IMG/VR virus record: IMGVR_UViG_3300031555_002006
Length of the DNA: 64,000 nt
From: an uncultured virus (IMG/VR IMGVR_UViG_3300031555_002006)
Taxonomy: Duplodnaviria; Heunggongvirae; Uroviricota; Caudoviricetes
Strand: one strand, 5' to 3'
A program made the translations under genes and the position numbers. This document shows, piece after piece, positions 43,542 to 59,371 of the stretch. The notes under the pieces were generated by a model, which was not told the origin of the DNA, made no database searches, and worked only from the letters and a program-made list of their open reading frames with translations. Within the stretch, counting starts at the first letter, position 1. Every line of letters begins with the position of its first letter.

Positions 43542-46500
43542 ATGGCAAAAGCGAAACAGCCGGTCACATTATCGGCTAATGGCAAATCCGTCACTTTTGA
43601 CGCCCTCCTGAAGCAGACGGATGGGTACGATAGTACCGTTCCCTCCTATCCTGTAGAAACGGGATTCAATGTCAGCGATACAATCATCATCGACAGCCCC
43701 ACGCTGTCGATGACGCTGTATCTGGCAAAAACTCCTGTCACATGGAAGAACCGAAACGGCACAAACCGCGTAGAACAGCATGTAGCCATGCTTGAAAACC
43801 TTTACTTCCAAAAGGCCTTATGCTCTATCAGCACAACCGAAAAGAGTTATGCGAACATGGCTATCGAGTCCATGAGCATCGTGAAGTCCGAGGAATTAGG
43901 CTATGACAAGCAGGTCGAGATCTCGTTCCGAAAAATCATCGTTACCTCGACCAAAACGGTCGGTATCCCTGACAGCTATGGCAAGAGCGGCTCGACCATG
44001 GCATCCAACGGTGCTGCATCTACAACGCAGGGCGGTGCCTCTGCCGGCGCGGACACTTCCGGAGGATCTTCCGGAAGTGGCGACAATTCCAAGTCTTCGA
44101 TGCTGTACGCAGCTGCGGCAGCGGCCGGGATAGTGTAGGAGGTGGAATATGAGCTATCTGATTATTGAAGTGCCTGATATGAACGACAGCGTATCCCGCA
44201 TCGTTCTGAATGGCGTTGCCTATCATATCCGCTTTACCTACAACGACACCGAAGATCGCTGGCGTTTCGGATTGTACGACTCTCAGATGCAGCCCATCGT
44301 TCAGGGCGTCAAAATCGTTCCCGGGTTCCCTTTGAACCTGTTTAAGGGGCGCGATGACATTCCCAATGGCGTATTTGCGTGCTTGAGCAAAGAGGATGTG
44401 GTTGGTAGAACAGACTTTGCCGAAGGTAAAGCCCGGTTCGTATTCGCCCCCGCTGAAGGAGGTGTCTTATGACGAACTTTGATCGCCAGTATCGCTTTGC
44501 CGCCGGAGAGGCCGGCGGCAAAGCTTTTCAAATCGGTGAGCCGGGCAGCGAAGTCCCCATGCCGCTGCGTATCCGGTTTGATATTGAAAAGACCGACCTC
44601 GAAACCCCGAATACGGGTAAGATCTCCATTTGGAACCTGTCGCCGGCTCATATTGCAGAGCTGGAAAAAACGAACTGTATCGCCTCCCTCAACGCGGGGT
44701 ACAACTCGAAGCGTCCGCTGGTCATTTCGGGCCTTGTAATCCATTGTGTGACCGAGGATGACGGCGCAGATCGTAGAACTGACATCGAAGTTGAGGATAG
44801 CTTGGTGAGTTTGAGAGACACCTATGTGACTATCAGCTACAGCGGCAAAACCAACTCCAAAACCATTCTGGATGATGTGGCAAATCAGATGGGCGTAGCT
44901 GTGACCTATTCGTATAACGCAGAGTTCGCAGACTTACCCAATGGTTACGCCTACGTCGGCCAAGCTCGGAATGTCCTCACAAAAATCTGCAACACCAGCA
45001 ACCTTGTGTGGTCGTTGCAGAACGGCATCCTCCAAATCAAAAAGCCGGGAGATACCCTTTCCAAAGAGGTGTTCATGCTGTCTGCACAGACTGGCATGGT
45101 CGGAAGTCCTCGCCGTTTCACATCCACGGCGACCGATGACAGCAAGAAGGACGATAGCGGCTGGGAGGTCGATTACCTCATGAATACCGCCATCAATATT
45201 GATGATTACGTCTATTTGCAGTCCAAGAAGGCCACCGGCTATTTCCGCGTGTACTCGGTCAAGATCACCGGTGATACCCACGGCAATTCGTGGATCTGTA
45301 CCGCAAAACTCGTAGCTGTCTGAAAGGAGGAGCCATGAACCAGGAATATATTCAGGCGATGAAAGACCTTGTACGGTCTATGTCCAATGAAATGCACACG
45401 GCTCTCCCGGGACAGATCGTGTCATTCGACCCTGCGACATGCACCGCAACGGTAAAGCCTGTGATGAAATACACCAAGCCGGATAAAAGCACCATCGACT
45501 TTCCTGAGCTTCCCGGCGTTCCGGTCGTTTTCCCGCAGGGCGCGGGCTTGGGAGTGTCTATCGCATTCCCGGTCGCTGCCGGCGACACTTGTCTCATTGT
45601 TTTCTCGGAGCAGTCTATCGACTACTGGCGTTATGGACAGGAAACCGGCACGGACTTGCGCTTCGATCTCTCTAATGCAATGTGCATCCCTGGCTTGTTC
45701 ACAGCTGGCAGCGCTGCGGTGCAGAAAGCGTGCGCGGAAAATGCAGCCGTTATGGTTGCAGGGGGCGTCAGCTTGACCGTCAGCGGCTCGGGCGTGAGCA
45801 TCAAGGGTAATTTGTCGGTTGACGGGAAAATCGTTTCTACGGGCGATACGGTGGCAATGGGAAAGAGTGTCGCCACGCATACCCACACCGGCGACAGCGG
45901 CGGCAACACAAGCACCCCGCAGTAAGGAAGGTGTTATATGCTTGATATTTTACTTAGCAATAACGGTGATTTGAAAATCACGGACTCGGGCGACATCGAA
46001 TTGACGAACAGCGTACGTCAGGCTATTCGAGTACGGCTTCAGTGGTTCCTCGGCGAGTGGCGCTTGGGGCCAGATGCAGGCATTCCGTGGTTTGAAGAGA
46101 TCCTGATTAAAAACCCCAATATTGATCGGTGCTGCCAACTGTTCAGAGAAGCAATCCTGTCAGTCGAAGAAGTCAAGAACGTAACGAACATGAGTCTGGT
46201 CATCGACCCTAAGACCCGCCGTGCGGTCTTGAAGTTCTCGGCAACCACCGAGGAAGAAACATTTAACGAGGAGGTGCTGATTAGTGTCTGATTACGGAAT
46301 TACGAAATCGGGCGTCAACATCAAGCGCCTCGACACCATTCTGAGCGAAATGCACGACGATCTTTCGGAGGGTTGGGGCGTCAATACACGCATCAATCCC
46401 GAAAGCTATTTGAACGTGCAGCTGACCGCCTTTGCGGATAAAATCGCTGAGCTCTGGGAGTTCGGGCAGCAGATCTACGACAGCTATCATCCCGCCACCG

Positions 46501-48429
46501 CAGAGGACTCGGCGCTTGATAGCGCCTGCCAGTATTCCGGTGTCGAGCGTCAGTCTGCCGCCCAGACCATTTATCCCATCCATTGCACCGGTACAGATGG
46601 TACGGTACTCGAAGCCGGCACAACCGTTTCGTCGAACACGAACCCCCGTATCGACTTCACCGTCACCACGAGCAAGGCTATTGAGAGATCTTCTTTCAAC
46701 CGCGCCCGCCTGCGCATCGTCGCACTGTCTCAGGCGGCGACCTATACGATCTCCATCAACGGTACGCTCTACTCTTACACCGCATCCGAGACCGATACCG
46801 CAGAGGATGTTCTTGCCGGCCTTGCCGAGCGCATCGTGGCAGGCGGCGACTTTACCGCATTCGTCATGGACTCCACGGCAGAATTGCCCGTCACATTGTC
46901 CATTGAGGCCGTAGACGTGTCCCAAAGTTATGTGATGCTGCTGACGGAAAATCTCACCACGGAAACCGTTACATCCATTATCAACTTCTCGTCTGTGGAC
47001 TACGGCGAAATCATCGTGCCTAACGGTGCGATCTCCATTATCAGCAAAGGTCCGTCCGGCTTCGCTGGCTGCGCAAACCTGTGCTCTTATGTCGCCGGCC
47101 GCCAGCGTGAAACGGACACTGAGTTCAGGCAGTCTTATGCAGATAAGGTATTCAACCTCTCCAACCGTACATTGCAGGCCATCAAGGCTGCCATCCTCAC
47201 CAACGTTCAGGGCGTCAATAGTGTTGCGATCTATGAGAACGACCAGGATGTCCCGGATGATGCCGGGCGTTATCCACACAGTGTGGAAGTAATTGTGGAT
47301 GGTGGAAACCCGGCAGAAATCGCTACGCAGATCTTCCGAAGGAAGGCCGGCGGTATTAACACCTACGGATCCACGGAGGTTGATCTTGTTGGCGATAACG
47401 GCGAGACCATCACCATCCGTTTCAACCGCCCCTCCTATGTCTATGTGTGGTGGCACATCGGCATCACACAGGATACGGCTTCTCAGCTTCCGACTGATTA
47501 TGCAACGCAGATCAAAGCCATTATCGCCGATGCTATGAAGGATATTGAGACTGGCGATGACATCATTCCCCAGCGAGTATTCAAGAGCATCTACGAGAAC
47601 GTAGACGGCATTGCCTACATTGACGTCAAGCTTTATGCCACCGCCGATGCGGCTGCTGCCCCGGACTCTTCTGCTGCATACACACTGCGAAGCCTTACCA
47701 TGTCCGACCGTGAACTGGCTATCACCAGTGACGCAATGGTAGAGGTGGCACTGGATGGATAAGAATACTGCATTTGATTATCTCGTCAGGCTTCAAGCTG
47801 ACTTGATCGAGCAGTTTCGCGGGCTTCCGAATATCGAGGTGCTCAATAAGGTGCTGGCAAAGCAGTTGCAGGAGGTTTACGACTTCCTGCTCCAGCTTCG
47901 CACTGTGCTTGAGATCGACAACTGTTCCGGACAGCAGCTCGATAACATCGGAAGCATCGTCCAGCTCACGAGAAAGGAAGCTGCTGCGCTGGCGCAGCAG
48001 TCGAGCTACATCTACGCAGACGAGGACGATATGTACCGCGTGTTCCTGCATTACAAGATCTTCCTCAACACCGCAGAGTGCACCTATAGCGACATCATGC
48101 GCTCGATTTACATGCTGTGGGACGGAAAACTTTCTTATCACGAGTACCCCGAAGACCCGGCGACGATCTATCTGGATTATGAAATGTTCAGCGGCAAAAA
48201 CAACCGGCAGCTGCTGAACATCCCCATCCTAAAGCCTGCTGGCGTCCGCATCCGGTTCCGTGCCTACGGCAATTTCGGCATGACGCTCTATATGGGTGGC
48301 AGCACTACGCAGATGGCGAAGATCACGTATATTCAGGATACCCCAGCGGAACTTCCTCAGTATCTCGTCGATGACGAGAACAATATCCTTACGGATGAGC
48401 TCGGCAACATTCTTTACGAACTGGAATAG
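43542..48429 (+). CDS. Baseplate genes: 43542-44138, 44149-44472, hub 44469-45323, spike 45335-45925, gp25-like 45938-46291, baseplate J-like 46284-47762, wedge 47755-48429
   Basis: Synteny; spike ends THTHTGDSGG; GEWRL..DAGIPW; GRQRETDTEFR. Confidence 0.8.
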
Positions 48430-48441
48430 AGGTGATTATAA

Positions 48442-49500
48442 GTGGTCAAAGTTAACATTACCAATTTCGGCAAGGCACTGCTGATTAAGGCGCTCCATAA
48501 CGAGTCTCCCATCAACTTCGTGTCTATGCAGTTTGGTAACGGTGAAGTACCGGAAAACTACGAAGAGCTTACGGCTCTGATGAACCCTCTGCTCGAGTGC
48601 AGCATCTCTTCCATGGAGAAGGGCGATAACTACATTCAGCTGACATCTGTATTCGATAACAGCAATGTTGAGGCCGACTTCGACATGACAGAGATCGGTG
48701 TTTTTGCAGAGGACGCCACCTTGGGCAAGGGCTTGTTCGCCTATGTAAATCAGGAGAACGACTCTGAGCCCGTATATTCCGAGAACTCCAACAAGCTCAA
48801 GGAAAACCAGATCTCCGTGCAGATCATTGTGGATGATGCGGAGAACGTCACAGCAACGGTCAAGTCGCTGGTTTACGCCACCAAGCAGGAGCTCGAGGAC
48901 CATATCAAAAACTACGAGAACCCTCACCGGGTCACGGCGGCTCAGATCGGCCTTGGTAAGGTAGAAAATACCACTGTTGCCGATGCTGCAGTCAAGTTCA
49001 CCGCCGCGAAGGAAATGGTGAATATTGAGTCTGGTGAAAAGGTGGCCACCATCTTCGGTAAGATCTACACCGCACTCAAGGCGCTTTTGGCGCACCTTAC
49101 CGACTACAAGAACCCGCACAAGGTTACGCCTATTGATATTAAAGCTGCGGCCGAGGGTCATCTTCACTCTGCAGCTGACATCAAAACCGGCACCTTGGCT
49201 GTCGGTCGTGGCGGCACCGGCAGGGAAACTTGGACGGGAGATCTGCTGATTTATGCAGATACCGCGACGTCGCTTGCTCATGTTACTCGCCCGGCAAAGC
49301 TGTCGGTGCTTATGCAGGACTCCTCTGGCAAACCCTATTTTCAGGCGTTCGACCAGCTGCAGTTTGTGGCTTCCGGAAGCGCCGCACCTGCGAATACCAA
49401 TGTCTTCTGGATTGACCCCACACCGGTTACCGGCGGTCTCAAGTACCATAACGGCTCCGCTTGGGTGCATGTGCCTGTGGGCTATGCTGATGCTGAATAA
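48442..49500 (+). CDS. Tail fiber (proximal/collar) protein
   Basis: ITNFGKALL, EIGVFAED, two H...NPH.VT repeats, GTLAVGRGGTG. Confidence 0.8.
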   Translation: MVKVNITNFGKALLIKALHNESPINFVSMQFGNGEVPENYEELTALMNPLLECSISSMEKGDNYIQLTSVFDNSNVEADFDMTEIGVFAEDATLGKGLFAYVNQENDSEPVYSENSNKLKENQISVQIIVDDAENVTATVKSLVYATKQELEDHIKNYENPHRVTAAQIGLGKVENTTVADAAVKFTAAKEMVNIESGEKVATIFGKIYTALKALLAHLTDYKNPHKVTPIDIKAAAEGHLHSAADIKTGTLAVGRGGTGRETWTGDLLIYADTATSLAHVTRPAKLSVLMQDSSGKPYFQAFDQLQFVASGSAAPANTNVFWIDPTPVTGGLKYHNGSAWVHVPVGYADAE

Positions 49501-49514
49501 TGGAGGTGAACACC

Positions 49515-49805
49515 ATGGAAACAAAGATCCTGATTTCCGAAGAATTGTCGAACTACATCGAAGGCCTGTCTTACAGCGCCGCATCGTTGAGAGATTTGCT
49601 GCTTGATGCCGCAGAGCGCGGCTTGCAGGGGTCTCCCGCTTTCGAGCGCTGGGAGCAGAAATACATCGAGACCGACGCCGAGTTTCAGGTTGCCAAAGGG
49701 CAGCTCGAGCGCGAGTATGTGCTCCCTAAAATCGGCGACAAGCGTGTCAACTGGACGCTTGACTATAACACCAGAACGGTCACCATCGTGGAGGTGGAGG
49801 AATGA
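49515..49805 (+). CDS. Small protein associated with the rSAM cassette
   Basis: RBS ggaggtg; stop overlaps the rSAM start. Confidence 0.65.
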   Translation: METKILISEELSNYIEGLSYSAASLRDLLLDAAERGLQGSPAFERWEQKYIETDAEFQVAKGQLEREYVLPKIGDKRVNWTLDYNTRTVTIVEVEE

Positions 49806-51133
49806 GACCTTCCGAGAGCTTCATCGACAGAATGTCCAGGCTGTTTCATCCTGCGGAGCTTACCGGGTTCAGCGTCAATTCCTACCACACGAAGAATGTC
49901 ACGTTTCAGGTAACGGAAGACTGTAATCTTCGCTGTAGCTATTGCTATCAGGGAGCAAAGACCAGCAAGAAGATGTCCTTCGAGACCGCGAAAGCTATCA
50001 TGGACATGCTTCTTGCGGCTGACGAGCGTACCTGCAAATACATCACAACCACCAAGATCACTGGCGTAGTATTCGACTTCATCGGCGGAGAACCCTTTCT
50101 CGAGGTTGAATTGATCGACAAGATCATGGATTACTTTGTAGAGAGAGCCTTCCTTATGGAGCATCCGCTGGCGAATAAATACATGATAAGCATTTCGACA
50201 AACGGAACGCTGTACTTCACTCCGGAGGTACAGCGTTTTATTGCGAAATGGCACCGGCACCTCTCGCTGTCGATCTCCATTGACGGCAACAAGAAACTCC
50301 ATGACGCCTGCCGTGTATTCCCGGATGGTTCTGGCAGTTATGACATTGCCATCGCCGCAGCGAAAGACTACATGGAGCGATACGGGAAGATCGGAAGCAA
50401 GATGACGATCTCACCTGAAAACGTGATGTACCTGAACGACGCTGTGAGAGAACTGCTTGCGAATGGATACAGGGAGATTTATTTGAACTGTGTCTACGAG
50501 GAGGGCTGGACCGAAAAGCACGCGAAGATCCTTTACGAGCAGTTGAAAATGCTTGCAGACGAAGTGGTTGAGATGGAAGAACAGCCCATGCTTTCCATCT
50601 TCCAGCAGTACATCGGCCAGCCGATGCCCGAGAGCGACAATCGAAATTGGTGTGGCGGCACCGGATGTATGCTGGCCTTCGATGCAGATGGGTGCGCCTA
50701 CCCTTGTCTGCGTTATATGGCAAGCAGCCTTGCTGGTGCGCAGGAGCCGTATGCCATCGGAGATCTGAACCACGGTATCATGAATACCCCGGAGCATGAG
50801 CGGCGTGTGGATCTCCTCGGAAAAATCACACGCCGCAGTCAATCCACAGACGAGTGTTGGAACTGCCCGATTGCCTCTGGATGCAGCTGGTGCAGCGCAT
50901 ATAATTATCAGGTGTATGGAACACCCGATAAGCGTGTTACCTATATCTGCATCATGCACAAGGCGCGTGTACTGGCGACCTCGTATTATTGGAACACCTT
51001 GCTTCGCAAAAGCGGGAGCGCAAAGCGGTTCGCCCTCAATGTCCCCGAGTCCTGGGCTGTTCCCATCATCGGTGAGGAGGAGTACAGGATGCTCAAAACC
51101 CTTGCGGAGGTGAATGACGATGGCAATGATTGA
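49802..51133 (+). CDS. Radical SAM/SPASM-domain peptide maturase
   Basis: CNLRCSYC, FIGGEP, STNG, SIDG..KLHD..R; SPASM cysteines CGGTG...YPC...CWNC....GCSWC...IC. Confidence 0.9.
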   Translation: MRPSESFIDRMSRLFHPAELTGFSVNSYHTKNVTFQVTEDCNLRCSYCYQGAKTSKKMSFETAKAIMDMLLAADERTCKYITTTKITGVVFDFIGGEPFLEVELIDKIMDYFVERAFLMEHPLANKYMISISTNGTLYFTPEVQRFIAKWHRHLSLSISIDGNKKLHDACRVFPDGSGSYDIAIAAAKDYMERYGKIGSKMTISPENVMYLNDAVRELLANGYREIYLNCVYEEGWTEKHAKILYEQLKMLADEVVEMEEQPMLSIFQQYIGQPMPESDNRNWCGGTGCMLAFDADGCAYPCLRYMASSLAGAQEPYAIGDLNHGIMNTPEHERRVDLLGKITRRSQSTDECWNCPIASGCSWCSAYNYQVYGTPDKRVTYICIMHKARVLATSYYWNTLLRKSGSAKRFALNVPESWAVPIIGEEEYRMLKTLAEVNDDGND

Positions 51134-51770
51134 TGCCGCCCGGTTCACAGCCCTCAAGGCTCGTGTCCAAGCTGAATGCCTGCGCCGCAAATATAACGGA
51201 TCTGTGGTCGATTATGGCGGCGTGGATTACTATTTCAAAAACCAGCCTGCCCCCGATACGATTGCAGCAGAGGAACATTTCGAGAAAATCGCCGTCCCCT
51301 TAAACGCTATCAACTCCGACAAAATCCCGTACACCGATGGAGATCGCATCATTTCTGACGAAGAAATGACCGCCATGGAAGCGGCTGTGACCCTCTTCGA
51401 AACGAGGGCAATGACCGACCGGACACAGGGTGATTGCAAGACCAGCTGCACGGGTGCCTGTTATACAGGATGCGCAGGATCTTGTACTGGCGGCTGCGGT
51501 TCCAGCTGCTCCGGCACCTGTACCGGCGGATGCGATGGGTGTTCTGGTTGCTCCGGCTCTTGCCGTGGCGGTTGCCGTGGTTGCGGCTCCGGCTGCGCCT
51601 CCGGCTGTTCCGGGACCTGTTCTGGCACATGTAAGGGTGATTGCACGATGACTTGCGGTTATGCCGGCTGTGTCGGTTCCTGCATGGGGCTGTGTTACAA
51701 CGGCTGCACGACCAGCTGCGGTTCCTCTTGCAGTACCTGCGGCAATACCTGTTCTGGAATTTCACTTTAA
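51120..51770 (+). CDS. Protein with C-terminal CxxxC-repeat tract (28 Cys), putative rSAM substrate
   Basis: CKTSCTGACYTGCAGSCTGGC...; overlaps the rSAM stop. Confidence 0.85.
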   Translation: MAMIDAARFTALKARVQAECLRRKYNGSVVDYGGVDYYFKNQPAPDTIAAEEHFEKIAVPLNAINSDKIPYTDGDRIISDEEMTAMEAAVTLFETRAMTDRTQGDCKTSCTGACYTGCAGSCTGGCGSSCSGTCTGGCDGCSGCSGSCRGGCRGCGSGCASGCSGTCSGTCKGDCTMTCGYAGCVGSCMGLCYNGCTTSCGSSCSTCGNTCSGISL

Positions 51771-51782
51771 GGAGGCTATGTA

Positions 51783-52331
51783 ATGGAAATCACAAGCGCA
51801 TACGAAATTGCAGTAGCAAACCTCGCTGTCGCACTGAGCGAGGATGCGGTGTCCACCGAACAGCGGGCGGAGATCGCAACAGCGGTGGGCGGCGACGTCG
51901 ACCGCCTTATTGATGTGGTCAATATCTTCATTGTCCACAACAATTCCAAGATGTACGAGGGGAAAATCACCGCTGCCAAAGCGAAGAGCACCGTGAAAGC
52001 GGAATATAACGCTATTGGCCTTGGCGAAGTTGTGAAATATTACTTCCTCGAGAAACCCATCGAGGTCTTCTATGACCGCGACATTTTCTCCAAGAGCGCA
52101 CCGACCGAAAAAGTGGAACGCATCAAGGAGATTTTCAAGCGCAACCTGTCCTGTCCCAATGACCGCATCCGGGTCGGCGTGGACAGCTACGCGCTGCGCC
52201 TGCTCTATCATTTTGGCCTGATTGCAGAGGATCTTGAGTTCACCAAGAAGCTCATGATCCAGATCAACAGCTACAGCACCGATCATAAGGAGGCTGCGAT
52301 CCTGCCGCCTGCAATCGTTACCGAACTGTAA
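51783..52331 (+). CDS. Hypothetical protein of the rSAM cassette
   Basis: RBS aaggagg; lies between the Cys-rich gene and the giant protein. Confidence 0.7.
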   Translation: MEITSAYEIAVANLAVALSEDAVSTEQRAEIATAVGGDVDRLIDVVNIFIVHNNSKMYEGKITAAKAKSTVKAEYNAIGLGEVVKYYFLEKPIEVFYDRDIFSKSAPTEKVERIKEIFKRNLSCPNDRIRVGVDSYALRLLYHFGLIAEDLEFTKKLMIQINSYSTDHKEAAILPPAIVTEL

Positions 52332-52341
52332 GGAGGATACT

Positions 52342-55300
52342 ATGAGCGACGAAAACAAAGGCATTATTCCTCTTAATGAGAAGCCGGTGTCTGCTTCGGC
52401 GGCACTGGCAGATTTTTTTGTAACCGTCATCGGTGGCAAGGTTCGCCTTGCCACCGTAAAAACCATTGCCGACTGCCTTACCGATGCACAGATCAAGTCC
52501 ATCGAGGAAGCGGCGAAAGAACTGACGGCCATCCTCACAAAGGACGCACAGGATGCCGCGGATAGAGCCGAGGCTGTGGCAACGCGCCTGGAAACCTTCC
52601 TCGGAAGTATCCCTGTGGATGTAAAATACGACCCGCTGACCTATCTGCTGACCCTGATGAACGAAAACTCTTTGCCCATTGGTCAGGGTACGACCATCAA
52701 GGCAGGTATCTCCGACATCCAGATGGTGGTTGAGAAAAACGAAGAGACTGGCACCAACGATCTCGTGCTCTACGATGGAGACGGCGAGGTTGTGAGCCGC
52801 ACCCCTCTGCCTGCCGGCGGCGGTGGCGGCGGTGGTGGAGCGTCCTCCTATTCTATCTCCATCAAGAACCTTATGGACTCTCGTACGGTCAGCGCACCCG
52901 CTGGCGCCGCTATTCCGCTGACATTCCTCTACACCTCCGTGGACGAAGATGGCTATGATGACGGAAAGGGTGTTGGCACCATCTGGGTTAACGGCGTTAA
53001 AAAGGGCGCGGTTGACATTGTGCAGGGCGAAAACACGGTTTATGTGGAGTCCTACATCGGCAGCGGTGCCAATGCCGTCAAAATCACCGTGGAGAACTCT
53101 GAAGGAAGCAGCAGAAGCCTTTCCTATACCGTCAATATCGTGGCACTGAGCGTCACTACCACGCTGGATGCGTACAACGAGTGCAGAGGCGACACGATTT
53201 TCTACTACACTCCTATCGGCACCGGCGTAAAGACCATTCATTTCTTGATGGATGGCAAGGAGCTCGGTACCGCAGAGGTTTCCACCAGCGGCCGCAGCCA
53301 GAGCTACACCATCCCCGCACAGGAGCACGGCGCACACATCTTCAAGTGCTACGCCGAAATGACCGTATCCGGCGTTACCGTTACGAGTGACCCGATTATT
53401 CTTGGCATGGCTTGGATCGACTCTGAAAAATCCACGCCTATGGTAGTCTCTACGTTTGACGTCAAGGAGGCTACACAGGGCGAAGCTCTGACGATCTCCT
53501 ACTTGGCATACGACCCGGCAACAGAGGAGACCACCGTTACCCGCAGCATCATCGATGCGGACGGAAATATCGTTGAGTCGAAGGCTGTATCCGCTGACCG
53601 CACAGAGCAGAAATGGGTTGTGCAGGATTATCCTGCCGGAGCAATCAAGTTCCGCGTTGCCATCGGCGCCATCGGCGTAGACCTCCCTGTGAACGTCAAG
53701 GAGAACTCCATCGTTATCGAGCCCATCACCGACAGTTTGGTGCTCGATTTTGACCCCATCGGCCGCAGCAACAAGGAGGACAACCCCGAGAATTGGACCA
53801 GCGGCGAAGTTTCCGCTACCTTCTCCGGCGTAGGTTTCTCCGATGCCGACGGCTGGCTGACGGATGCCGATGGTGCAGCTATGTTCCGCCTGCTCCCCGG
53901 AGGTCAGATGACCATTCCGTTCCATCTGTTTGCCACCGACTGCAGAGATACTGGCGCGACCGTCGAGGTCGAAATGGCAACGCACAATGTCCGCGACTAC
54001 GACAGCGTGGTTATGTCCTGCTTGTCCGGGAACCGCGGCTTTATGATCGCAAGCCAGTATGCCGAACTCCACAGCGAGCAGAGCAGCATTTCCAAGCAGT
54101 TCAAAGAGGATAAGAAGGTTCGCGTCTCCTTCGTGGTCGAACCCCGTAACCTCCACCGCATGATTTATGTGTATGTGGACAGCGTCATGTGCGGTGCTAT
54201 CCAGTACCCTGCAGATGACAACTTTGCACAGTCTCCGGCCACCGGCATCACCATCGGCGCCGAGTCGAGCGGCATTGATGTCTACCACATTCGTCTGTAC
54301 AGGAAGGGCCTGACTCGCTTCGAGATCCTCGATAACTTTGCAGCAGATCGCCCCACTCTGAAGGAGCGCATCGATGCGCATAAGCGCAATGATATTTTCA
54401 ACGAGTCCGAAGAGGTCGTTATCACGAAGCTGCCTGTCACTCTCCCGTACATGATTATCTCCTGTCCCGAGCTGCCGCAGTCCAAGGGCGATAAGAAGAC
54501 GTGCGAGATCACTTATGTTGACCCGGCCAATCCTGCAAAGAGCTTTACGGCTTCTGGTGTCACCATCGATGTTCAGGGTACGTCTTCTGCCGGCTACAAG
54601 AAGAAGAACTGGAAGATCACCTACAAGAATGGCCTGACGCTCACGGCCAGCGGAGAGCAGGTCTCCGAATACCAGCTGCGCAGCACATCCGTCCCGGCGT
54701 CCTGTTTCTGCATGAAAGCAGACGTCGCATCGAGCGAAGGCGCCAACAATGTCGAGCTGGTTCGCTTGTATAACGACACCGTTCCTCACAAGACTCCTCC
54801 CCAGGAAGAGAATGCCAACGTCCGTGTCGGCATCGACGGCCTGCCCTGCGTCATTTTCTGGCAGAACAGCAGCACCGGCGAACTTCGGTTCTGGGGTAAG
54901 TACAACTTCAACGACGAGAAGTCCTCCACCCAAGTCTACGGCTTAACCGAAGGCTGTGAGAGCTGGGAGATCAAGAACAACACCTCCAACCGTGTCATCT
55001 TCAAGAGTGCTGACTTCTCCGGAAGCGGCTGGCTCAATGACTTCGAAGCTCGTTATCCTGACGGCAATGAAGATCCTTCCAAGCTGAAAGTCATGTGTGA
55101 GTGGGTTGTTTCCACTGATCGCGCAGCCGCTACCGGTAATTCTTTGGGCAAGACTGTTACCTATGGCGGTGTAAGTTACACCAACGATACCGCAGAATAT
55201 CGCCTTGCCAAGTTCAAGGCTGAGTTCGAGGAACACTTCGTCAAGGTCCCCATGCTCTATTACTATCTGTTCACCGAGACCTTCCTGATGGTCGATAACA

Positions 55301-58300
55301 GAGCGAAGAACTTCTTCCCCAGCACCTTTGATGGTGTCCACTGGCTGCCCCTGCCTTACGACATGGATACTGCCATGGGTATCAACAACGAAGGCCAGCT
55401 GGTCTTCGAGTACGACCTTGAGGATACCGACACAGTCGGCGGCGCAGACGTTTTCAATGGCCAGAGCTCCGTACTTTGGTGCAACATCCGCGACGCTTTC
55501 CCCGATGAACTCAAGGCTCTGTATGGCGAGCTCCGTGGTGGCTCCATGTTCAACTACTCCGAGGTCGTTAATCGCTGGGCCAGCCATCAGGCCACATGGC
55601 CCGAGGCGATCTGGAACGAGGATGCGTGGGAGAAGTACCTTGAGCCGTTGGAGAATGACAACGACAGCGGCTATCTGGCTATGCTGCAGGGCGACAAAAA
55701 GAGCCAGCGCGAGTGGTGGGTCTTCAACGGCTTCCGCTACCGCGACTCCAAGTACGAGTGCGGCGATGCCGAGGCAAGCTATATCACGCTCCGCTGCTAT
55801 GCGGTCGGTGATATTACCATCACCCCGTACAGTCATATTTGGAGCCGCATTAAGTTCGGTTCCTACACCGTCAAGGCTCGCAGCAAGCGCAACCAGGCGG
55901 TCACCCTCAAGTGCCCTCTGGACGAGATGAATGATACCGAAACCTATATCTACTCTTCTGACAGACTTGCCAAGATCGGAGATCTGAGCCATCTTCACGT
56001 CGGCTATGCGAACTTCGTCATGGCTCCCAAGCTGCAGGTGCTCAAGCTGGGCGACGGTGCCGCTGATTATCAGAATACCCGCCTGAATGAGCTGTATGTC
56101 GGCAACAACGATCTGCTCGATGAACTGGATGTCCGTAACTGTGTCAATCTGAAAATGCCCGTAGATCTGACGGGATGCGTCGGCATTGAGACCATCCGCG
56201 CTACCGGCACGGCAATCGACTCCGTCAAACTCCCGGTTGGCGGCAAGCTGAAAACGCTGGAACTCCCTGGCACCGTAACGAACCTGACTATTCGCGATCA
56301 CGCACAGTTGTCCTCCTTCACCATGGAGGGCTACGGCGAGATCCAGACTCTGCGCATCGAGAACACCCCCAACATCCCCTGGGAGGCTCTTATTAACGGC
56401 GCAGAAAAACTCAACCGTGTCCGCATCATCGGAGCGGAGTGGACGGCCAGCAGCGCCGAAGCATTGCAGGAAACCTACGACCGTCTGAGCGCGGCCGCTG
56501 GTATGAATGCTGCCGGCGACAATACCGACAAGGCTGTCGTTACCGGCCGAGTTGTGCTGAAGAGCGACATCGATGCAGATCTTCTGGCAGCTTTCACCGA
56601 AAACTTCCCCGACCTTCTGATCGTCGCCAACGGTATCGCAAACTGCACCGTCCGTTTCCGTAACTGGGATGGCACCGTGCTTCATACCACCACCGTTGCT
56701 TACGGCTCCGACGTCGCAGATCCTGTGGCAAACGGCACCATCGACGCTCCTGTTCGCGCTGCATCTGACCGCGTGGTCTATGTCTTCAAGGGCTGGGATC
56801 GCGATCTGACGAACATCACGAACAACGCCGTCTTTACTGCGGTGTTCGAGGAGCAGTACGCATGGATTGTCACCTTCTGCAACTGGGACGGCTCCGAGCT
56901 GTGCAAGGTTTCCGTCCAGAATGGCGGCGCCGCGGCAGATCCTATCGAGTCTGGCCTTATCAGTACACCCGCCCGACCGGGCGACGCCGATTACGCCTAT
57001 ACCTTCCTTGGTTGGGACAAGTCCATCTACAATGTCACCGAGGACCGCACGATCACTGCCCGGTACTCCACCGAGGCATCCGTGGCCGTCAGCTTCGTTG
57101 ACTGGGATGGCACTGTGCTGTACACCGCCTATTGCGCGGCCGGCAGCAGCATTGCCGACCCGATCCTGGCTGGTCACATCACGGCGCCCGTTAGAGCCAC
57201 CGACGAAAGCGCTCAGAAAGAGTATACCTTTACCGGATGGGATAAGGAACTGTCCAATATCACTGAGGCCACTACAGTCACGGCGACCTATTCCTCCAAG
57301 AGCTACTACACAGCGACCTTCCAGAACCCTGATGGCACCGTGCTGTTTGTTCGCAGACTCTACGCCGGCAACGCCGTCAAGGACCCCGTTGCCACCGGCG
57401 AGATCGAGACTCCTACGCAGGAGCCTACCGAGACCTATGGTTATATCTACAAAGGCTGGGACAAGACGCTCACGTCCAGTATTTCCGCCAACGTGGTCTA
57501 TACGGCAACATACAAGACCGACCAGCAGTTTACCGTCACCTTCGTGGATTACGACGGCACTGTGCTTGATACGCAGCTCGTCTATGACGAGGATGGCGCT
57601 GTTGACCCCGTTACCTCTGGACGTATCGCAACGCCTGTTCGCGCTTCCACCGCTCAGTATGAGTATAAGTGGACCGGCTGGTCTGGCACCTTCACTAACA
57701 TTACGGCAGATAAGACCATCACTGCGACCTACAGCACCACAACCCGCACTTATACCGTCACCTTCTGGAATGGTTCTACCCTCGTGCAGACTGTGGCAAA
57801 CGTGGCTTATGGCGGCAGTGCTACCTACACGGGAGATCCTGTTTCCAAGCCCGATGTTGATGATCCTGACAGTTACGTGCATGTCGGTTGGACACCCTCG
57901 CCGACCAGCATCACCGGCGATACAGCCTGCTACGCTGTCTACGTCGCCCTCCCCGAAGGCTTCAGCGATGCCTATGGTGTTCTTTGGGCTTACGGTCAGT
58001 CGAGCACAGCTCTTGGCCGCCTGGGTCTGGCAAAAACCTTTGTCAATCCCATTCCCGCAACCAGCCTGACCGACGAGGGCAGCAGCCCCTTCGACGATGT
58101 CATGCCTTGGGCCGGTATGAAGAAGTACAACATCATCGATGGTGCCATTGCGTACTCTGAGGATGACGAGGGCTTCTCCATGACCGATTACGATACGGTG
58201 GTCTACATCCCCGAGTTCTGGTTCAAGGCGGCGAAGGATACCAGCGCCGAAACATGGGTTTGGGCGATCTCGCCCACCGAGAAGGAAGGCTTCACGAAGC

Positions 58301-59016
58301 ATCCCGGCAGTGGTCGCTATATCGGCCGTTATCATACCTCTGGCGACAGCTCGGCAGTATTCTCTAAATCCGGTGTAGCCCCGCTGGTCAACACCAGCCG
58401 TACCAATTTCCGCACCTACAGCCACAACAAGGGTGATAAGTGGTGGATGCTTGACATTGCCACTTGGAGCGCCTTGCAGATGCTGTACCTGATTGAGTTC
58501 GCAGACTTCCACTCTCAGAACACATTGGGTAAAGGCTATGGCTCCAGTTCTCAGGTCAGCGGCGCAAGTGACGGTGCTGTATACCACACCGTCAACGGCG
58601 GCAACACTTACAACCAGTACCGTTGGGTCGAACAGCCCTTCGGCCGTGTTATGGACTGGGTCGATGGCTTTATGGCATCTTCCCGAAAGTGCTACCTGGG
58701 CACCGACAATGCTACCTTTGCGGACAGTACCTCGGCGCTTACCGCAGCCGGCGTAACTCTGCCTTCCTCCAACTACATCACCGGCTTCGGATACAGCGAG
58801 GAGTTCCCCTGGGCATTCCTGCCTGATGAAGCTTCTGGCGGTAGCGCTTCCACGTTCGTTCCCGACTATGTGTACTCGTTCTCTGGCATCAATGCGCTGT
58901 ATGTCGGCGGCAACTATTACAGCCTCGACCTCTACGGCTTCTGGTACTTCTATGCGAACAACTCTGCGACCAACACGTACGGCAGCCTCGGCTCCCGACT
59001 CCTTTATATCCCCTAA
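52342..59016 (+). CDS. 2224-aa multidomain tail/adhesin protein, DGR target
   Basis: Beta-rich and LamG-like N-terminus, CotH-like region, LRR-like region, six F..DG.VL...GW repeats, C-terminal CLec-like end (YVGG...LGSRL) containing the VR. Confidence 0.85.
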   Translation: MSDENKGIIPLNEKPVSASAALADFFVTVIGGKVRLATVKTIADCLTDAQIKSIEEAAKELTAILTKDAQDAADRAEAVATRLETFLGSIPVDVKYDPLTYLLTLMNENSLPIGQGTTIKAGISDIQMVVEKNEETGTNDLVLYDGDGEVVSRTPLPAGGGGGGGGASSYSISIKNLMDSRTVSAPAGAAIPLTFLYTSVDEDGYDDGKGVGTIWVNGVKKGAVDIVQGENTVYVESYIGSGANAVKITVENSEGSSRSLSYTVNIVALSVTTTLDAYNECRGDTIFYYTPIGTGVKTIHFLMDGKELGTAEVSTSGRSQSYTIPAQEHGAHIFKCYAEMTVSGVTVTSDPIILGMAWIDSEKSTPMVVSTFDVKEATQGEALTISYLAYDPATEETTVTRSIIDADGNIVESKAVSADRTEQKWVVQDYPAGAIKFRVAIGAIGVDLPVNVKENSIVIEPITDSLVLDFDPIGRSNKEDNPENWTSGEVSATFSGVGFSDADGWLTDADGAAMFRLLPGGQMTIPFHLFATDCRDTGATVEVEMATHNVRDYDSVVMSCLSGNRGFMIASQYAELHSEQSSISKQFKEDKKVRVSFVVEPRNLHRMIYVYVDSVMCGAIQYPADDNFAQSPATGITIGAESSGIDVYHIRLYRKGLTRFEILDNFAADRPTLKERIDAHKRNDIFNESEEVVITKLPVTLPYMIISCPELPQSKGDKKTCEITYVDPANPAKSFTASGVTIDVQGTSSAGYKKKNWKITYKNGLTLTASGEQVSEYQLRSTSVPASCFCMKADVASSEGANNVELVRLYNDTVPHKTPPQEENANVRVGIDGLPCVIFWQNSSTGELRFWGKYNFNDEKSSTQVYGLTEGCESWEIKNNTSNRVIFKSADFSGSGWLNDFEARYPDGNEDPSKLKVMCEWVVSTDRAAATGNSLGKTVTYGGVSYTNDTAEYRLAKFKAEFEEHFVKVPMLYYYLFTETFLMVDNRAKNFFPSTFDGVHWLPLPYDMDTAMGINNEGQLVFEYDLEDTDTVGGADVFNGQSSVLWCNIRDAFPDELKALYGELRGGSMFNYSEVVNRWASHQATWPEAIWNEDAWEKYLEPLENDNDSGYLAMLQGDKKSQREWWVFNGFRYRDSKYECGDAEASYITLRCYAVGDITITPYSHIWSRIKFGSYTVKARSKRNQAVTLKCPLDEMNDTETYIYSSDRLAKIGDLSHLHVGYANFVMAPKLQVLKLGDGAADYQNTRLNELYVGNNDLLDELDVRNCVNLKMPVDLTGCVGIETIRATGTAIDSVKLPVGGKLKTLELPGTVTNLTIRDHAQLSSFTMEGYGEIQTLRIENTPNIPWEALINGAEKLNRVRIIGAEWTASSAEALQETYDRLSAAAGMNAAGDNTDKAVVTGRVVLKSDIDADLLAAFTENFPDLLIVANGIANCTVRFRNWDGTVLHTTTVAYGSDVADPVANGTIDAPVRAASDRVVYVFKGWDRDLTNITNNAVFTAVFEEQYAWIVTFCNWDGSELCKVSVQNGGAAADPIESGLISTPARPGDADYAYTFLGWDKSIYNVTEDRTITARYSTEASVAVSFVDWDGTVLYTAYCAAGSSIADPILAGHITAPVRATDESAQKEYTFTGWDKELSNITEATTVTATYSSKSYYTATFQNPDGTVLFVRRLYAGNAVKDPVATGEIETPTQEPTETYGYIYKGWDKTLTSSISANVVYTATYKTDQQFTVTFVDYDGTVLDTQLVYDEDGAVDPVTSGRIATPVRASTAQYEYKWTGWSGTFTNITADKTITATYSTTTRTYTVTFWNGSTLVQTVANVAYGGSATYTGDPVSKPDVDDPDSYVHVGWTPSPTSITGDTACYAVYVALPEGFSDAYGVLWAYGQSSTALGRLGLAKTFVNPIPATSLTDEGSSPFDDVMPWAGMKKYNIIDGAIAYSEDDEGFSMTDYDTVVYIPEFWFKAAKDTSAETWVWAISPTEKEGFTKHPGSGRYIGRYHTSGDSSAVFSKSGVAPLVNTSRTNFRTYSHNKGDKWWMLDIATWSALQMLYLIEFADFHSQNTLGKGYGSSSQVSGASDGAVYHTVNGGNTYNQYRWVEQPFGRVMDWVDGFMASSRKCYLGTDNATFADSTSALTAAGVTLPSSNYITGFGYSEEFPWAFLPDEASGGSASTFVPDYVYSFSGINALYVGGNYYSLDLYGFWYFYANNSATNTYGSLGSRLLYIP
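58869..59004 (+). repeat. DGR variable repeat (VR)
   Basis: 136-bp match to the TR with 13 mismatches, 12 of them at TR adenines. Confidence 0.95.
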
Positions 59017-59235: not shown

Positions 59236-59371
59236 TGTGAACTCGAACTCTGGCACCAATGCGCTGTATGTCGGCGGCAACTATAACAGCAACGACAACT
59301 ACGGCTTCTGGTACTTCAATGCGAACAACTCTGCGACCAACACGAACGGCAACCTCGGCTCCCGACACCTT
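59236..59371 (+). ncRNA. DGR template repeat (TR)
   Basis: Copy of the VR rich in AAC/AAT (13 AAY codons in the VR frame), upstream of the RT. Confidence 0.95.

What the first reader, a model, noticed from the sequence alone, without database searches (positions are those of the whole stretch)
49515..52331. RiPP-like radical SAM/SPASM cassette with a 28-Cys CxxxC protein embedded in the phage tail module
Seen: four closely packed genes sit between the tail fiber and the DGR-diversified adhesin. They encode a 96-aa protein, an intact rSAM/SPASM enzyme (CNLRCSYC plus auxiliary-cluster Cys), a ~216-aa protein whose last ~110 aa hold 28 Cys mostly in C-x3 spacing with G/S/T fillers, and a 182-aa unknown. 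No transporter, protease or immunity gene is present. Known: SPASM maturases install thioether crosslinks in Cys-rich peptides (sacti/ranthipeptides), and CXXX-repeat target/maturase families exist in bacteria. Inference: the substrate has a ~100-aa domain-sized N-terminus rather than a short leader and lies in the late structural operon. It may therefore be a post-translationally crosslinked or metal-loaded virion component, such as a fiber tip, i.e. RiPP chemistry used in virion morphogenesis.
Basis: partly seen in the sequence, partly recalled or inferred. Interest (0 to 1): 0.85.

Follow-up and report, generated by a model that had tools for sequence, protein, structure and literature searches.

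The report
Phage tail-module enzyme for cysteine-ladder protein
A gut-bacterium prophage carries, among its tail genes, an iron-sulfur "radical SAM" enzyme, a small helper and a protein with a cysteine at every fourth residue that the enzyme most likely cross-links, and the same trio recurs at the end of the tail genes in many other phages.

Summary
Four tightly packed + strand genes (49515-52331) lie between a tail fibre gene and the DGR-diversified 2224-aa tail protein of a complete temperate myophage. They encode a 96-aa protein, a radical SAM/SPASM enzyme that passes NCBIfam TIGR04115 (CXXX-repeat maturase; 470.7 bits, cut-off 350), a 216-aa protein (helical N-domain plus 28 Cys in 111 aa, 22 of 27 spacings CxxxC) and a lineage-specific 182-aa protein.

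New here:
- The 96-aa protein is a distant homologue of TIGR04116, the accessory protein of the bacterial CXXX system.
- The trio enzyme + helper + N-domain/Cys-ladder protein is conserved in 66 enzyme clusters from phage contigs and Clostridia prophages.
- It nearly always sits at the end of the tail module: tail genes upstream in 20 of 25 loci sampled, lysis or further tail genes downstream in 18 of 25.
- It lacks the bacterial second maturase (TIGR04119) and Tat export signal.
- Cys ladders are sometimes fused to fibre-type domains.
- Cultured jumbo phages (SPN3US, Erwinia Caitlin) hide unannotated Cys-ladder genes beside their radical SAM genes.

Enzymatic cross-linking is well supported by homology and one biochemical precedent (CrpC/CrpA). 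Incorporation into virions is inferred, not shown. Earlier notes of this scan describe the same theme on other DNA. My searches found no paper on it.

The parts
48442..49500 (+). Context: tail fibre gene (352 aa) directly upstream of the cassette
   Evidence: PF12571 Phage_tail_fib E 3.5e-8; phrog_7037 tail fiber E 1.2e-26; homologues (41-42% id) sit in the same place in L069-L072
49515..49805 (+). 96-aa helper protein, distant homologue of TIGR04116 'CXXX repeat peptide modification system protein'
   Evidence: Iterated HMM from this protein finds a member in 43 of 44 IMG/VR loci and pulls in the bona fide TIGR04116 protein of L002 (E 3e-17). hhalign of its family alignment against that protein: probability 92.7%, E 4.4e-7, 85 columns. 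A direct NCBIfam scan of the window protein gives nothing; 5 of 55 family members hit TIGR04116 weakly (best E 0.0052). AF2 pLDDT 97.3: strand, two long helices, two strands.
49802..51133 (+). Radical SAM/SPASM peptide/protein maturase, CXXX-repeat target family (443 aa)
   Evidence: TIGR04115 470.7 bits against cut-off 350; PF04055; phrog_1802 E 2.9e-70. CX3CX2C and 7 invariant C-terminal Cys. Nearest solved chain 5wgg/5why (CteB), E 2.5e-21; query 31-370 aligns to chain 97-424, so the N-terminal ~96 residues of CteB have no counterpart.
51120..51434 (+). N-terminal helical domain (residues 1-105) of the Cys-ladder protein
   Evidence: AF2 helices 6-22, 30-33, 51-64, 80-95, block-mean pLDDT 68-88. 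R23 is invariant in both alignments; K13, R22, G27, P43 and K56 are at least 90% conserved in both; E19 is invariant in A3 and at least 90% in A4; L12, V16, Y32, E52 and H53 are at least 90% conserved in A3. A profile of this domain finds 672 representative clusters at E<=1e-3 and 422 at <=1e-10 in 1.84 billion.
51435..51770 (+). CxxxC 'cysteine ladder' (111 aa, 28 Cys) and stop codon; presumed core modified by the enzyme
   Evidence: Invariant opening motif C106-x3-C110-x-G112-x-C114 in 40 of 40 aligned homologues. Weak hits to TIGR04117 (E 3.8e-4, 20.5 bits, cut-off 50) and phrog_6085. AF2 pLDDT <50 throughout.
51783..52331 (+). 182-aa protein of unknown function, specific to this phage lineage; not part of the conserved core
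   Evidence: No Pfam or NCBIfam family. Homologues only in L004 (identical), four syntenic Oscillospiraceae prophages (45-48% id) and 7 protein clusters. Proteins of 175-227 aa at the same position in other phages share no detectable similarity.
52342..59016 (+). Context: 2224-aa tail protein/adhesin with DGR variable region at its C-terminus
   Evidence: phrog_14959, phrog_5302; VR/TR pair; RT at 59488-60564

Best explanation
This is a phage version of the CXXX-repeat radical SAM maturation system, built into the late tail operon. The 443-aa radical SAM/SPASM enzyme has no recognition domain of its own. It works with the 96-aa TIGR04116-like helper to recognise the conserved helical N-domain of the 216-aa protein. 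It then processes that protein's CxxxC ladder, most likely by installing many intramolecular thioether (Cys-S to carbon) cross-links. The result is a covalently stapled, redox-independent segment that can be made in the reducing cytoplasm where virions assemble. The mature protein is most likely a tail-associated structural or adhesive component (a small appendage or fibre-like element), or it is needed to build one. Shown: gene content, family membership, conservation of the trio, position in tail modules. Inferred: the substrate-enzyme pairing (about 0.85), thioether chemistry (about 0.6), virion or tail association (about 0.5).
For: Enzyme:
- TIGR04115 above its curated cut-off.
- Intact radical SAM and SPASM cysteines.
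- Next-best families are thioether-forming maturases: PapB 185 bits, CcpM, QhpD-type, SCIFF.
- Nearest solved structure is CteB.

Pairing:
- Of 80 genome loci with the closest enzyme relatives, 73 have a CxxxC ORF, 60 the N-domain and 69 the helper.
- Of 44 IMG/VR loci, 43 have the helper and 36 an N-domain/Cys-ladder protein.
- One cluster representative (P0043) fuses N-domain, ladder and helper in one ORF.

Helper: homologous to TIGR04116.

Tail linkage:
- The window is a complete myophage with the cassette between fibre and DGR tail protein.
- No internal + strand promoter-like site, and overlapping or 10-12-nt junctions.
- In 25 dereplicated loci, tail-category PHROGs lie within 3 ORFs upstream in 20; downstream there are lysis genes in 12 and tail genes in 6. 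The same picture holds in 11 hand-inspected loci.
- L069-L072 keep the whole block fibre-helper-enzyme-ladder-182aa-DGR target-RT.

Structural hints:
- Ladders are fused to a PF12810 glycine-rich domain whose paralogues lie beside tail-fibre fragments (L039).
- Ladders are also fused to long non-Cys C- or N-terminal domains (L037 968 aa, P0060, P0068).
- Jumbo contigs carry 4-6 ladder proteins with up to 104 Cys.

Importance: inteins interrupt the enzyme gene in L037, L039, L040 and L047.

Cultured analogue: SPN3US and Erwinia phage Caitlin have three conserved, unannotated ladder ORFs between a virion structural protein and two radical SAM genes. These lie next to gp168, a tail protein placed at the baseplate periphery (PMC5105663, passages).

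Precedent: CrpC, a radical SAM/SPASM enzyme, installs ranthionine cross-links in the 28.8-kDa Cys-rich protein CrpA, and CrpA's N-terminal domain aids engagement (PMC13692751, abstract, passages and Discussion).

Bacterial relatives carry a Tat signal and TatA/TatC (L002). This fits a product that is finished in the cytoplasm and works outside it.
Against: - No direct evidence that the protein is in virions. No homologue matches a PHROG annotated as tail or structural; only phrog_6085, of unknown function.
- The N-domain fold has no informative match (best Z 5.9), and the ladder is not predictable (pLDDT <50).
- The N-domain is conserved across phages with different tail genes. This fits a docking domain for the enzyme better than an attachment domain for a particular fibre.
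- The slot between tail fibres and lysis genes can also hold accessory genes.
- 5 of 25 sampled loci had no tail-category gene within 3 ORFs upstream. One of them (L126) is an orphan enzyme beside a transposase.
- The chemistry is untested. PapB-type acceptors (Asp/Glu) are almost absent from the ladder (2 Asp, 0 Glu).
- The substrate misses the curated cut-offs of TIGR04114/04117.
- Only 25 of 51 eligible dereplicated loci were scanned for neighbours.
Confidence: 0.5

Rival explanations
1. The modified Cys-ladder protein is a late-expressed but non-virion product, released at lysis. It could be a metal-binding, matrix-binding or antimicrobial factor that helps the phage or its lysogen in the gut. 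The tail-module position only ensures late expression.
For: No signal peptide, so it is released only by lysis. The cassette often lies immediately before holin/endolysin genes (12 of 25). The N-domain is independent of tail type. The function of the archaeal analogue CrpA is unknown, and metal binding was suggested (PMC13692751, Discussion). There is no similarity to any annotated structural protein.
Against: Fusions of ladders to fibre-type and large non-Cys domains. Very large investment in jumbo phages, 4-6 proteins. Conserved position downstream of baseplate and fibre genes in phages whose lysis genes lie elsewhere, including this window and L069-L072. No protease that would release a small active peptide.
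Confidence: 0.25
2. The modified protein is an assembly factor (scaffold or chaperone) for the neighbouring fibre or the DGR-diversified tail protein and is absent from the finished particle.
For: Adjacency to fibre genes. Small size. Small accessory proteins that vary between lineages (182 aa here, 175-227 aa elsewhere) sit next to it.
Against: Known tail-fibre chaperones do not need covalent modification (general knowledge, recalled). Ladder length varies from 17 to more than 100 Cys, which is odd for a chaperone. Fusions place ladders inside large putative structural proteins.
Confidence: 0.12
3. The ladder is a metal- or Fe-S-binding module that is not cross-linked. The radical SAM enzyme carries out another reaction on it, or loads it.
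For: Dense Cys with G/S/T fillers resembles metal-binding sequences. Bacterial homologues use Tat, the route for cofactor-bearing proteins. AF2 gives no structure for the apo ladder.
Against: The enzyme's nearest characterised relatives all form thioethers on Cys (PMC13692751). Strict 4-residue periodicity and an invariant opening motif suggest serial enzymatic processing.
Confidence: 0.1
4. A bacterial RiPP-like cluster captured by chance; it has no role for the phage.
For: The enzyme family was defined in bacteria (TIGR04115).
Against: The phage form is a distinct, widely conserved variant: own N-domain family of 672 representative clusters, no TIGR04119 in 0 of 80 loci, fixed position in tail modules, inteins, and presence in lytic jumbo phages.
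Confidence: 0.03

Closest known systems
Bacterial CXXX-repeat radical SAM system (NCBIfam TIGR04115 maturase, TIGR04114/TIGR04117 targets, TIGR04116 accessory, TIGR04119 second maturase); uncharacterised experimentally as far as my searches show
   Same: The enzyme passes TIGR04115. The target has Cys every fourth residue. A small accessory is homologous to TIGR04116.
   Different: No TIGR04119 SPASM-only maturase (0 of 80 loci). No Tat signal or TatAC neighbours as in L002. The target carries a conserved ~105-aa helical N-domain and misses the curated cut-offs of TIGR04114/04117. The system is embedded in phage tail modules.
CrpC/CrpA of Methanococcus voltae (TIGR04463 family; Dieter et al. 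2026, PMC13692751)
   Same: A radical SAM/SPASM enzyme modifies a Cys-rich protein, not a short peptide, that has an N-terminal domain and C-terminal Cys motifs; ranthionine thioethers were shown by MS.
   Different: Different enzyme family (TIGR04463 68.6 bits, cut-off 525). CrpC has its own RRE, whereas the phage enzyme starts at the radical SAM core and has a separate helper. CrpA's motifs are not CxxxC ladders. The context is cellular, not viral; the word 'phage' occurs 0 times in that paper.
PapB/PapA (freyrasin) ranthipeptide system
   Same: Second-best NCBIfam hit (185.2 bits). From recall: repeated C-x3-acceptor motifs, each closed into a small thioether ring.
   Different: Below cut-off (340). 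PapA's acceptor is Asp (recalled), while the phage ladder has 2 Asp and 0 Glu in 111 residues. PapA is a short leader-core peptide.
CteB/CteA (SCIFF maturase; PDB 5WGG/5WHY)
   Same: Nearest solved structure by sequence (E 2.5e-21); a thioether-forming SPASM enzyme.
   Different: CteB residues 1-96 have no counterpart in the phage enzyme. This segment is the N-terminal RRE only by my recall. TIGR03974 scores 107.5 bits against a cut-off of 425.
Radical SAM gene pair of SPN3US-like jumbo phages (SPN3US gp163/gp164; Erwinia phage Caitlin gp171/gp172), annotated only as 'radical SAM superfamily protein'
   Same: gp163's best NCBIfam hit is TIGR04115 (125.6 bits). Three CxxxC-ladder ORFs lie just upstream, next to virion and tail proteins.
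   Different: 25% identity. A second, truncated radical SAM-like protein is present. Short ~50-aa leaders replace the 105-aa N-domain. No detectable TIGR04116-like helper was looked for beyond NCBIfam.

Membership tests
TIGR04115 radical SAM peptide maturase, CXXX-repeat target family | HMM score above NCBI's curated cut-off | tested here: met
   470.7 bits against 350, full-length match 30-396 to profile 1-359
TIGR04115 radical SAM peptide maturase, CXXX-repeat target family | CX3CX2C radical SAM motif and C-terminal SPASM cysteines | tested here: met
   C41/C45/C48 and C284, C302, C352, C355, C361, C364, C383 invariant in 8 of 8 aligned sequences
TIGR04115 radical SAM peptide maturase, CXXX-repeat target family | Adjacent protein with Cys-Xaa-Xaa-Xaa repeats | tested here: met
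   22 of 27 spacings CxxxC; a CxxxC ORF is present in 73 of 80 related genome loci
Canonical four-part bacterial CXXX system | Target passes TIGR04114 or TIGR04117 | tested here: not met
   TIGR04117 20.5 bits against cut-off 50; TIGR04114 not reported
Canonical four-part bacterial CXXX system | TIGR04116 accessory protein | tested here: inconclusive
   The window protein gives no direct hit. Its family links to a true TIGR04116 protein by iterated HMM (E 3e-17) and hhalign (92.7%). It is a distant homologue, below the curated cut-off.
Canonical four-part bacterial CXXX system | TIGR04119 SPASM-only second maturase | tested here: not met
   None of the four window proteins matches it. phmmer with the L002 TIGR04119 protein finds it in 0 of 80 genome loci.
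PapB family ranthipeptide maturase (NF047865) | HMM score above cut-off | tested here: not met
   185.2 bits against 340
TIGR04463 (CrpC) family | HMM score above cut-off | tested here: not met
   68.6 bits against 525
RiPP maturase with fused RRE (as CteB) | N-terminal recognition domain before the radical SAM core | tested here: not met
   The radical SAM motif starts at residue 41. The alignment to 5wgg begins at chain residue 97.
PqqD-like RRE (for the 96-aa helper) | Winged-helix fold of three strands followed by three helices | tested here: inconclusive
   The AF2 model is strand, two long helices, two strands. VIA search lists only generic helical hairpins, best Z 8.2, and no PqqD entry is listed.
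Phage virion (tail) structural protein | Gene lies in the tail morphogenesis module | tested here: met
Phage virion (tail) structural protein | Homology or fold likeness to a known virion protein | tested here: inconclusive
   Only phrog_6085, unknown function. PDB best Z 5.9. BFVD gives three uncharacterised homologues.
Phage virion (tail) structural protein | Detected in purified particles | not testable with these tools
   No cultured phage with the N-domain form in the 'phages' collection. The SPN3US ladder ORFs are unannotated, so searches built on the deposited annotation would not have included them (inference; I did not see the proteome tables).

The most novel reading that the evidence does not exclude
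Phages from gut Clostridia prophages to enterobacterial jumbo phages use RiPP-type radical SAM chemistry as a morphogenetic step. A dedicated enzyme and helper convert a cysteine-every-fourth-residue tract into a continuous thioether-stapled rod. That would be a new kind of covalently hardened, protease- and redox-proof structural element of the tail or adhesion apparatus, made in the reducing cytoplasm where disulfides cannot form.
Probability: 0.4. Interest if true: 0.85.

Novelty: new variant of a known kind. Interest (0 to 1): 0.72.

Why it matters
Enzymatic thioether cross-linking is known from small antimicrobial peptides and, very recently, from one archaeal protein. I know of no virion protein matured by a radical SAM enzyme.

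If the ladder protein is a tail component, this would add a new post-translational step to phage assembly. It would also explain why 'radical SAM' genes of unknown role sit in many phage genomes, including model jumbo phages. And it would define a new protein material, a poly-thioether ladder.

The idea is directly testable. The trio can be co-expressed. SPN3US-type phages are culturable, and amber mutants of other SPN3US genes have been made (PMC5105663). Their ladder genes are missing from the GenBank annotation I examined.

For annotation: the N-domain family (672 representative clusters) and the helper family deserve names, and CxxxC ORFs are being mis-framed in deposited genomes.

Tried and rejected
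- Complex prediction of enzyme + helper + ladder protein residues 1-130 gave 'no answer' (score 0.00, mark 0.32). It says nothing either way.
- RNA evidence: two RNA-library runs (X5, X6) hold contigs over parts of the cassette and the tail genes. Contigs cannot show transcription, strand or level, and DNA carry-over is possible. I drew no conclusion on expression.
- Pairwise BLASTP of the 96-aa and 182-aa proteins against positional counterparts in L001/L002 found nothing. The helper link appeared only with profiles.
- The 182-aa protein has no family, no Atlas hit, only 7 close clusters, and no similarity to same-position proteins of other phages. Its function is left open.
- Fold searches: the N-domain best match is Z 5.9 (LonA fragment, helical), and the helper best is Z 8.2 (designed helical hairpins). 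Both are within the range the tool calls uninformative.
- PDB sequence search with the helper profile gave nothing below E 0.28.
- The fused domains of P0060, P0068, P0044, L037 and L040 have no informative Pfam, PHROG or PDB sequence match beyond the Cys-tract family phrog_6085 and two sub-threshold Pfam hits in P0043. The Atlas lead for the P0060 C-terminus scored 0.79, below the trust level.
- Pfam PF27846 is precomputed on 20 of 25 homologue clusters but is absent from the local Pfam copy, so I could not learn its name.
- The window's own assembly is not held. The nearest record, G001, is a 12.7-kb fragment without the enzyme.
- Literature: 'CXXX repeat' + 'radical SAM' gave 0 papers. 'TIGR04115' gave 1 irrelevant paper. 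SPASM/phage/tail fiber/cysteine-rich, phage-encoded/RiPP/radical SAM/prophage, and radical SAM/SPASM/bacteriophage/thioether/virion gave nothing relevant in the listings. TIGR04114/04116/04119 and Cys-Xaa-Xaa-Xaa gave nothing relevant. 'SPN3US' + 'radical SAM' gave 1 paper that only mentions it. The review PMC12360287 has no passage on phage-encoded RiPPs. Subscription journals are not covered.
- I rejected the idea that the N-domain is a fibre-specific attachment domain, because it is conserved across unrelated tail modules.
- I rejected chance capture of a bacterial cluster (see rivals).


Full report
**What is there**

The window is essentially a whole temperate myophage. It has:
- an integrase (120-1292, - strand), a repressor and replication genes;
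- terminase, portal, major head protein (35856-36863), sheath (39167-40267) and tape measure (41403-43529);
- baseplate genes (44469-48429) and a tail fibre (48442-49500);
- the four genes of the finding, then a 2224-aa tail protein;
- a DGR reverse transcriptase (59488-60564), holin and endolysin.

The 2224-aa protein ends in a variable region (58869-59004) that is 90% identical to a template repeat at 59236-59371.

The four genes are packed head to tail. The junctions are a 4-nt overlap, a 14-20-nt overlap, and gaps of 12 and 10 nt. No + strand promoter-like site lies in 47500-53000; the three sites found are all on the - strand, against 3.9 expected by chance. Co-transcription with the late tail genes is therefore the simplest reading, but it is an inference.

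**The enzyme**

The 443-aa protein matches NCBIfam TIGR04115, 'radical SAM peptide maturase, CXXX-repeat target family'. It scores 470.7 bits against a curated cut-off of 350, over the full profile.

Its next-best families are all Cys-modifying or thioether-forming SPASM maturases and all fall below their cut-offs: PapB 185 bits, CcpM 116, QhpD-type 110, SCIFF 108.

It has the CX3CX2C motif and seven more C-terminal cysteines that are invariant in 8 of 8 aligned homologues.

The nearest solved structure by sequence is 5wgg/5why (E 2.5e-21). 5WHY is CteB according to PMC13692751 (passage). The alignment starts at CteB residue 97 and query residue 31. The phage enzyme therefore has no counterpart of CteB's first ~96 residues; that this segment is CteB's N-terminal recognition domain is my recall.

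**The substrate**

The 216-aa protein has 28 Cys in its last 111 residues, and 22 of the 27 spacings are CxxxC. None of 10,000 shuffles of that tail reaches 22; the maximum was 16. The DNA is hardly repetitive.

Across 40 aligned homologues the Cys columns and the opening motif C-x3-C-x-G-x-C are invariant or nearly so. Ladder length varies by whole repeats.

The first ~105 residues form a helical domain in the AF2 model (pLDDT 70-88). The ladder itself is not predictable (pLDDT <50).

This N-domain has conserved K13, E19, R22, R23, G27, P43, H53 and K56. A profile of it finds 672 representative clusters (422 at E<=1e-10) among 1.84 billion proteins. The domain lies at the very N-terminus in almost all of the 150 listed. 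Its fold has no informative match in the PDB (best Z 5.9). BFVD returns only three uncharacterised viral homologues.

**The helper**

The 96-aa protein has no direct family hit. An HMM iterated from it finds a member directly upstream of the enzyme gene in 43 of 44 IMG/VR loci, and it also pulls in the 91-aa protein of L002 (E 3e-17). That L002 protein is a bona fide TIGR04116 'CXXX repeat peptide modification system protein' (104.6 bits, cut-off 50).

Profile-sequence comparison gives 92.7% probability over 85 columns. TIGR04116 is the only NCBIfam family hit by more than one of the 55 family members (5 of 55).

The AF2 model is very confident (pLDDT 97.3): a strand, two long antiparallel helices and a two-strand hairpin. 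This is not the order of elements in a PqqD-type recognition element, and the fold search gave only generic helical hairpins.

The enzyme lacks a recognition domain, and the helper gene is translationally coupled to it. I therefore infer that the helper mediates substrate engagement. This is not shown.

**The fourth gene**

The 182-aa protein is conserved (45-48% identity) only in four syntenic Oscillospiraceae prophages and a handful of clusters. Other phages have a protein of 175-227 aa in the equivalent place, but these share no detectable similarity. I treat it as lineage-specific and of unknown role.

**Comparison with the bacterial system**

L002 (MT837480, filed as a phage record but with cellular-looking genes) shows the canonical arrangement:
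- a Cys-ladder protein with a twin-arginine signal;
- the TIGR04115 enzyme (630 bits);
- a SPASM-only TIGR04119 'CXXX repeat peptide maturase';
- TIGR04116;
- then proteins of 87 and 263 aa that I read as TatA and TatC from their sequences.

The phage form lacks TIGR04119 (0 of 80 loci) and the Tat signal, and it has its own N-domain.

**How widespread, and where**

The enzyme has 44 relatives in IMG/VR. It has 262 in one-genome-per-species bacterial contigs; the best 80 were kept, and almost all are Clostridia. The closest (64-66% identity) are Oscillospiraceae MAGs.

Of those 80 loci, 73 hold a CxxxC ORF, 60 the N-domain and 69 the helper. In 55 of them, at least three further ORFs match non-cassette ORFs of the viral loci.

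After dereplication, 114 loci with a full-length enzyme fall into 66 clusters at 75% identity, and 51 of these have three ORFs on each side. I scanned the neighbours of 25 of the 51 against PHROGs:
- 20 of 25 have a tail, baseplate or fibre family within three ORFs upstream;
- 12 of 25 have holin or endolysin within three ORFs downstream;
- 6 of 25 have further tail genes downstream;
- 3 of 25 have neither tail nor lysis genes on either side. One of these is an orphan enzyme beside a transposase.

Hand inspection of 11 diverse loci gave the same picture. In L001, a low-GC gut phage with an enzyme only 41% identical, the order is fibre, ladder protein, 202 aa, 94 aa, enzyme, more fibre-like genes, then a DGR-type tail protein. 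The linkage to the end of the tail module is thus conserved far beyond this phage lineage.

**Hints on the product's role**

Ladders occur fused to other domains:
- in L039, to a PF12810 glycine-rich domain whose paralogues are adjacent and next to tail-fibre fragments;
- in L037, inside a 968-aa protein with a ~400-aa non-Cys C-terminus;
- in P0060, followed by a ~190-aa C-terminal domain;
- in P0068, preceded by a ~175-aa N-terminal domain.

None of these extra domains could be named.

Jumbo-phage contigs carry four to six ladder proteins, with up to 104 Cys in one. Their enzyme genes are split by inteins. From general knowledge, inteins favour conserved sites of important genes. P0043 fuses N-domain, ladder and helper in one ORF.

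These observations favour a structural, extracellular-facing role. They do not prove one.

**A culturable handle**

The enzyme also has 25-28% identical relatives in SPN3US-like Salmonella and Erwinia jumbo phages. SPN3US gp163's best NCBIfam hit is again TIGR04115, at 125.6 bits and below cut-off.

Between SPN3US gp167 ('virion structural protein 20') and gp165 lie three tandem ORFs of 130, 134 and 68 aa. Each has a ~50-aa leader followed by a CxxxC ladder. They are unannotated, and the deposited gp166 is an overlapping wrong frame.

Erwinia phage Caitlin has the same three ORFs, again mis-annotated.

The upstream gene product gp168 is a tail protein similar to phiKZ gp131, which sits at the baseplate periphery (PMC5105663, passages).

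**Mechanism proposed**

1. The helper and the enzyme bind the N-domain.
2. The ladder is threaded through the active site.
3. Each Cys thiol is joined to a carbon of a nearby residue by hydrogen abstraction through the 5'-deoxyadenosyl radical, with the SPASM clusters assisting.

This is the chemistry of the enzyme's characterised relatives. It has now been shown on a 28.8-kDa Cys-rich protein, CrpA, whose N-terminal domain aids engagement (PMC13692751: abstract, passages, Discussion).

Which carbon is attacked is unknown. The Asp/Glu acceptors of PapB (recalled) are nearly absent here, so Ser, Thr, Gly or the next Cys would have to serve.

The biological rationale is inference. Virions assemble in a reducing cytoplasm, and many of these hosts are strict anaerobes. 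Thioethers would therefore give disulfide-like bracing that needs no oxidant and resists gut proteases.

**What remains open**

Nothing here shows the protein in a particle. The conserved N-domain argues for docking on the enzyme, not on a given fibre. The slot before the lysis genes can also hold accessory genes.

I therefore put:
- about 0.85 on the enzyme-substrate pairing;
- about 0.6 on thioether formation;
- about 0.5 on a tail-associated role.

The rivals, with their confidences:
- a lysis-released factor, 0.25;
- an assembly factor absent from the finished particle, 0.12;
- a metal-binding module, 0.1.

**Novelty**

The enzyme and target families are catalogued by NCBIfam, and protein-level ranthionine formation is published. 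My literature searches found nothing on the CXXX system's function or on any phage tail link.

Earlier notes of this same scan describe the same theme on other DNA: e1-5745852, e1-5749997, e1-6048839 and others. They are unreviewed AI notes and not independent evidence. One gave me the lead to the CrpC paper, which I read. Another mentions TAG recoding, which I saw independently in L044: eight in-frame TAGs, all at positions that read sensibly as Gln.

I class the finding as a new variant of a known kind.

Noticed in passing
L048 (SPN3US JN641803.1) 2094-2486, 2497-2901, 2917-3123; L129 (Erwinia phage Caitlin) 2101-2484, ~2490-2888, 2924-3142: Three tandem CxxxC-ladder ORFs, conserved between two jumbo phages, are unannotated or replaced by wrong-frame or wrong-strand calls (SPN3US_0166; CAITLIN_174-176). 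They lie just upstream of the phages' two radical SAM genes.
   Followed up: partly
L037 6983-8944, L039 5825-8176, L040 6362-8521, L047 6974-9304: The radical SAM genes of several large phage contigs are interrupted by inteins (Hint, Intein_splicing and LAGLIDADG hits). In L037, L039 and L040 the insertion lies in the N-terminal part near the radical SAM motif (Hint hits from about residue 45-70). In L047 it lies inside the SPASM 'NWCGG' motif.
   Followed up: partly
L044 7001-8323; L047 6974-9304: The enzyme gene of L044 has eight in-frame TAG codons that read as Gln at conserved positions (e.g. the FQVTD motif), so this phage recodes TAG. L047 shows in-frame stops at the same kind of place.
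   Followed up: partly
P0043 (334 aa): A single ORF joins N-domain, Cys ladder and a C-terminal copy of the 96-aa helper domain. It may be a natural fusion or a missed stop.
   Followed up: no
window 58869-59004, 59236-59371, 59488-60564: Complete DGR: variable region at the end of the 2224-aa tail protein, template repeat 90% identical, and reverse transcriptase. In run X7 a 37.9-kb contig matches 44000-52838 with 80 differences but becomes mosaic inside the 2224-aa gene.
   Followed up: partly
window 25062-28194: Two PAPS-reductase-like genes alternate with two ParB-like nuclease/partition genes just before the terminase. This looks like a DNA-modification module.
   Followed up: no
window 30454-32721: The portal protein (755 aa) carries an internal NUDIX/MutT-like stretch at residues ~483-586 (phrog_1198, phrog_1185).
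   Followed up: no
window 6548-10444: A 1298-aa protein combines SbcD-like and SbcC-like parts in one ORF (phrog_100, phrog_77).
   Followed up: no
window 22149-22412: An 87-aa + strand ORF with 10 Cys in CxxC/CxxxC pairs lies in the early region. It may be a zinc-ribbon protein. It was not checked and is not a ladder.
   Followed up: no
P0001-P0025: The source database has a precomputed Pfam accession, PF27846, on 20 of the 25 homologue clusters of the Cys-ladder protein. It is newer than the local Pfam copy, so its name and extent are unknown to me.
   Followed up: partly
L002 (MT837480.1) whole record: This record, filed as 'Bacteriophage sp.', looks cellular: a canonical Tat-linked CXXX system with TatA/TatC and no phage genes in 6.8 kb.
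   Followed up: no
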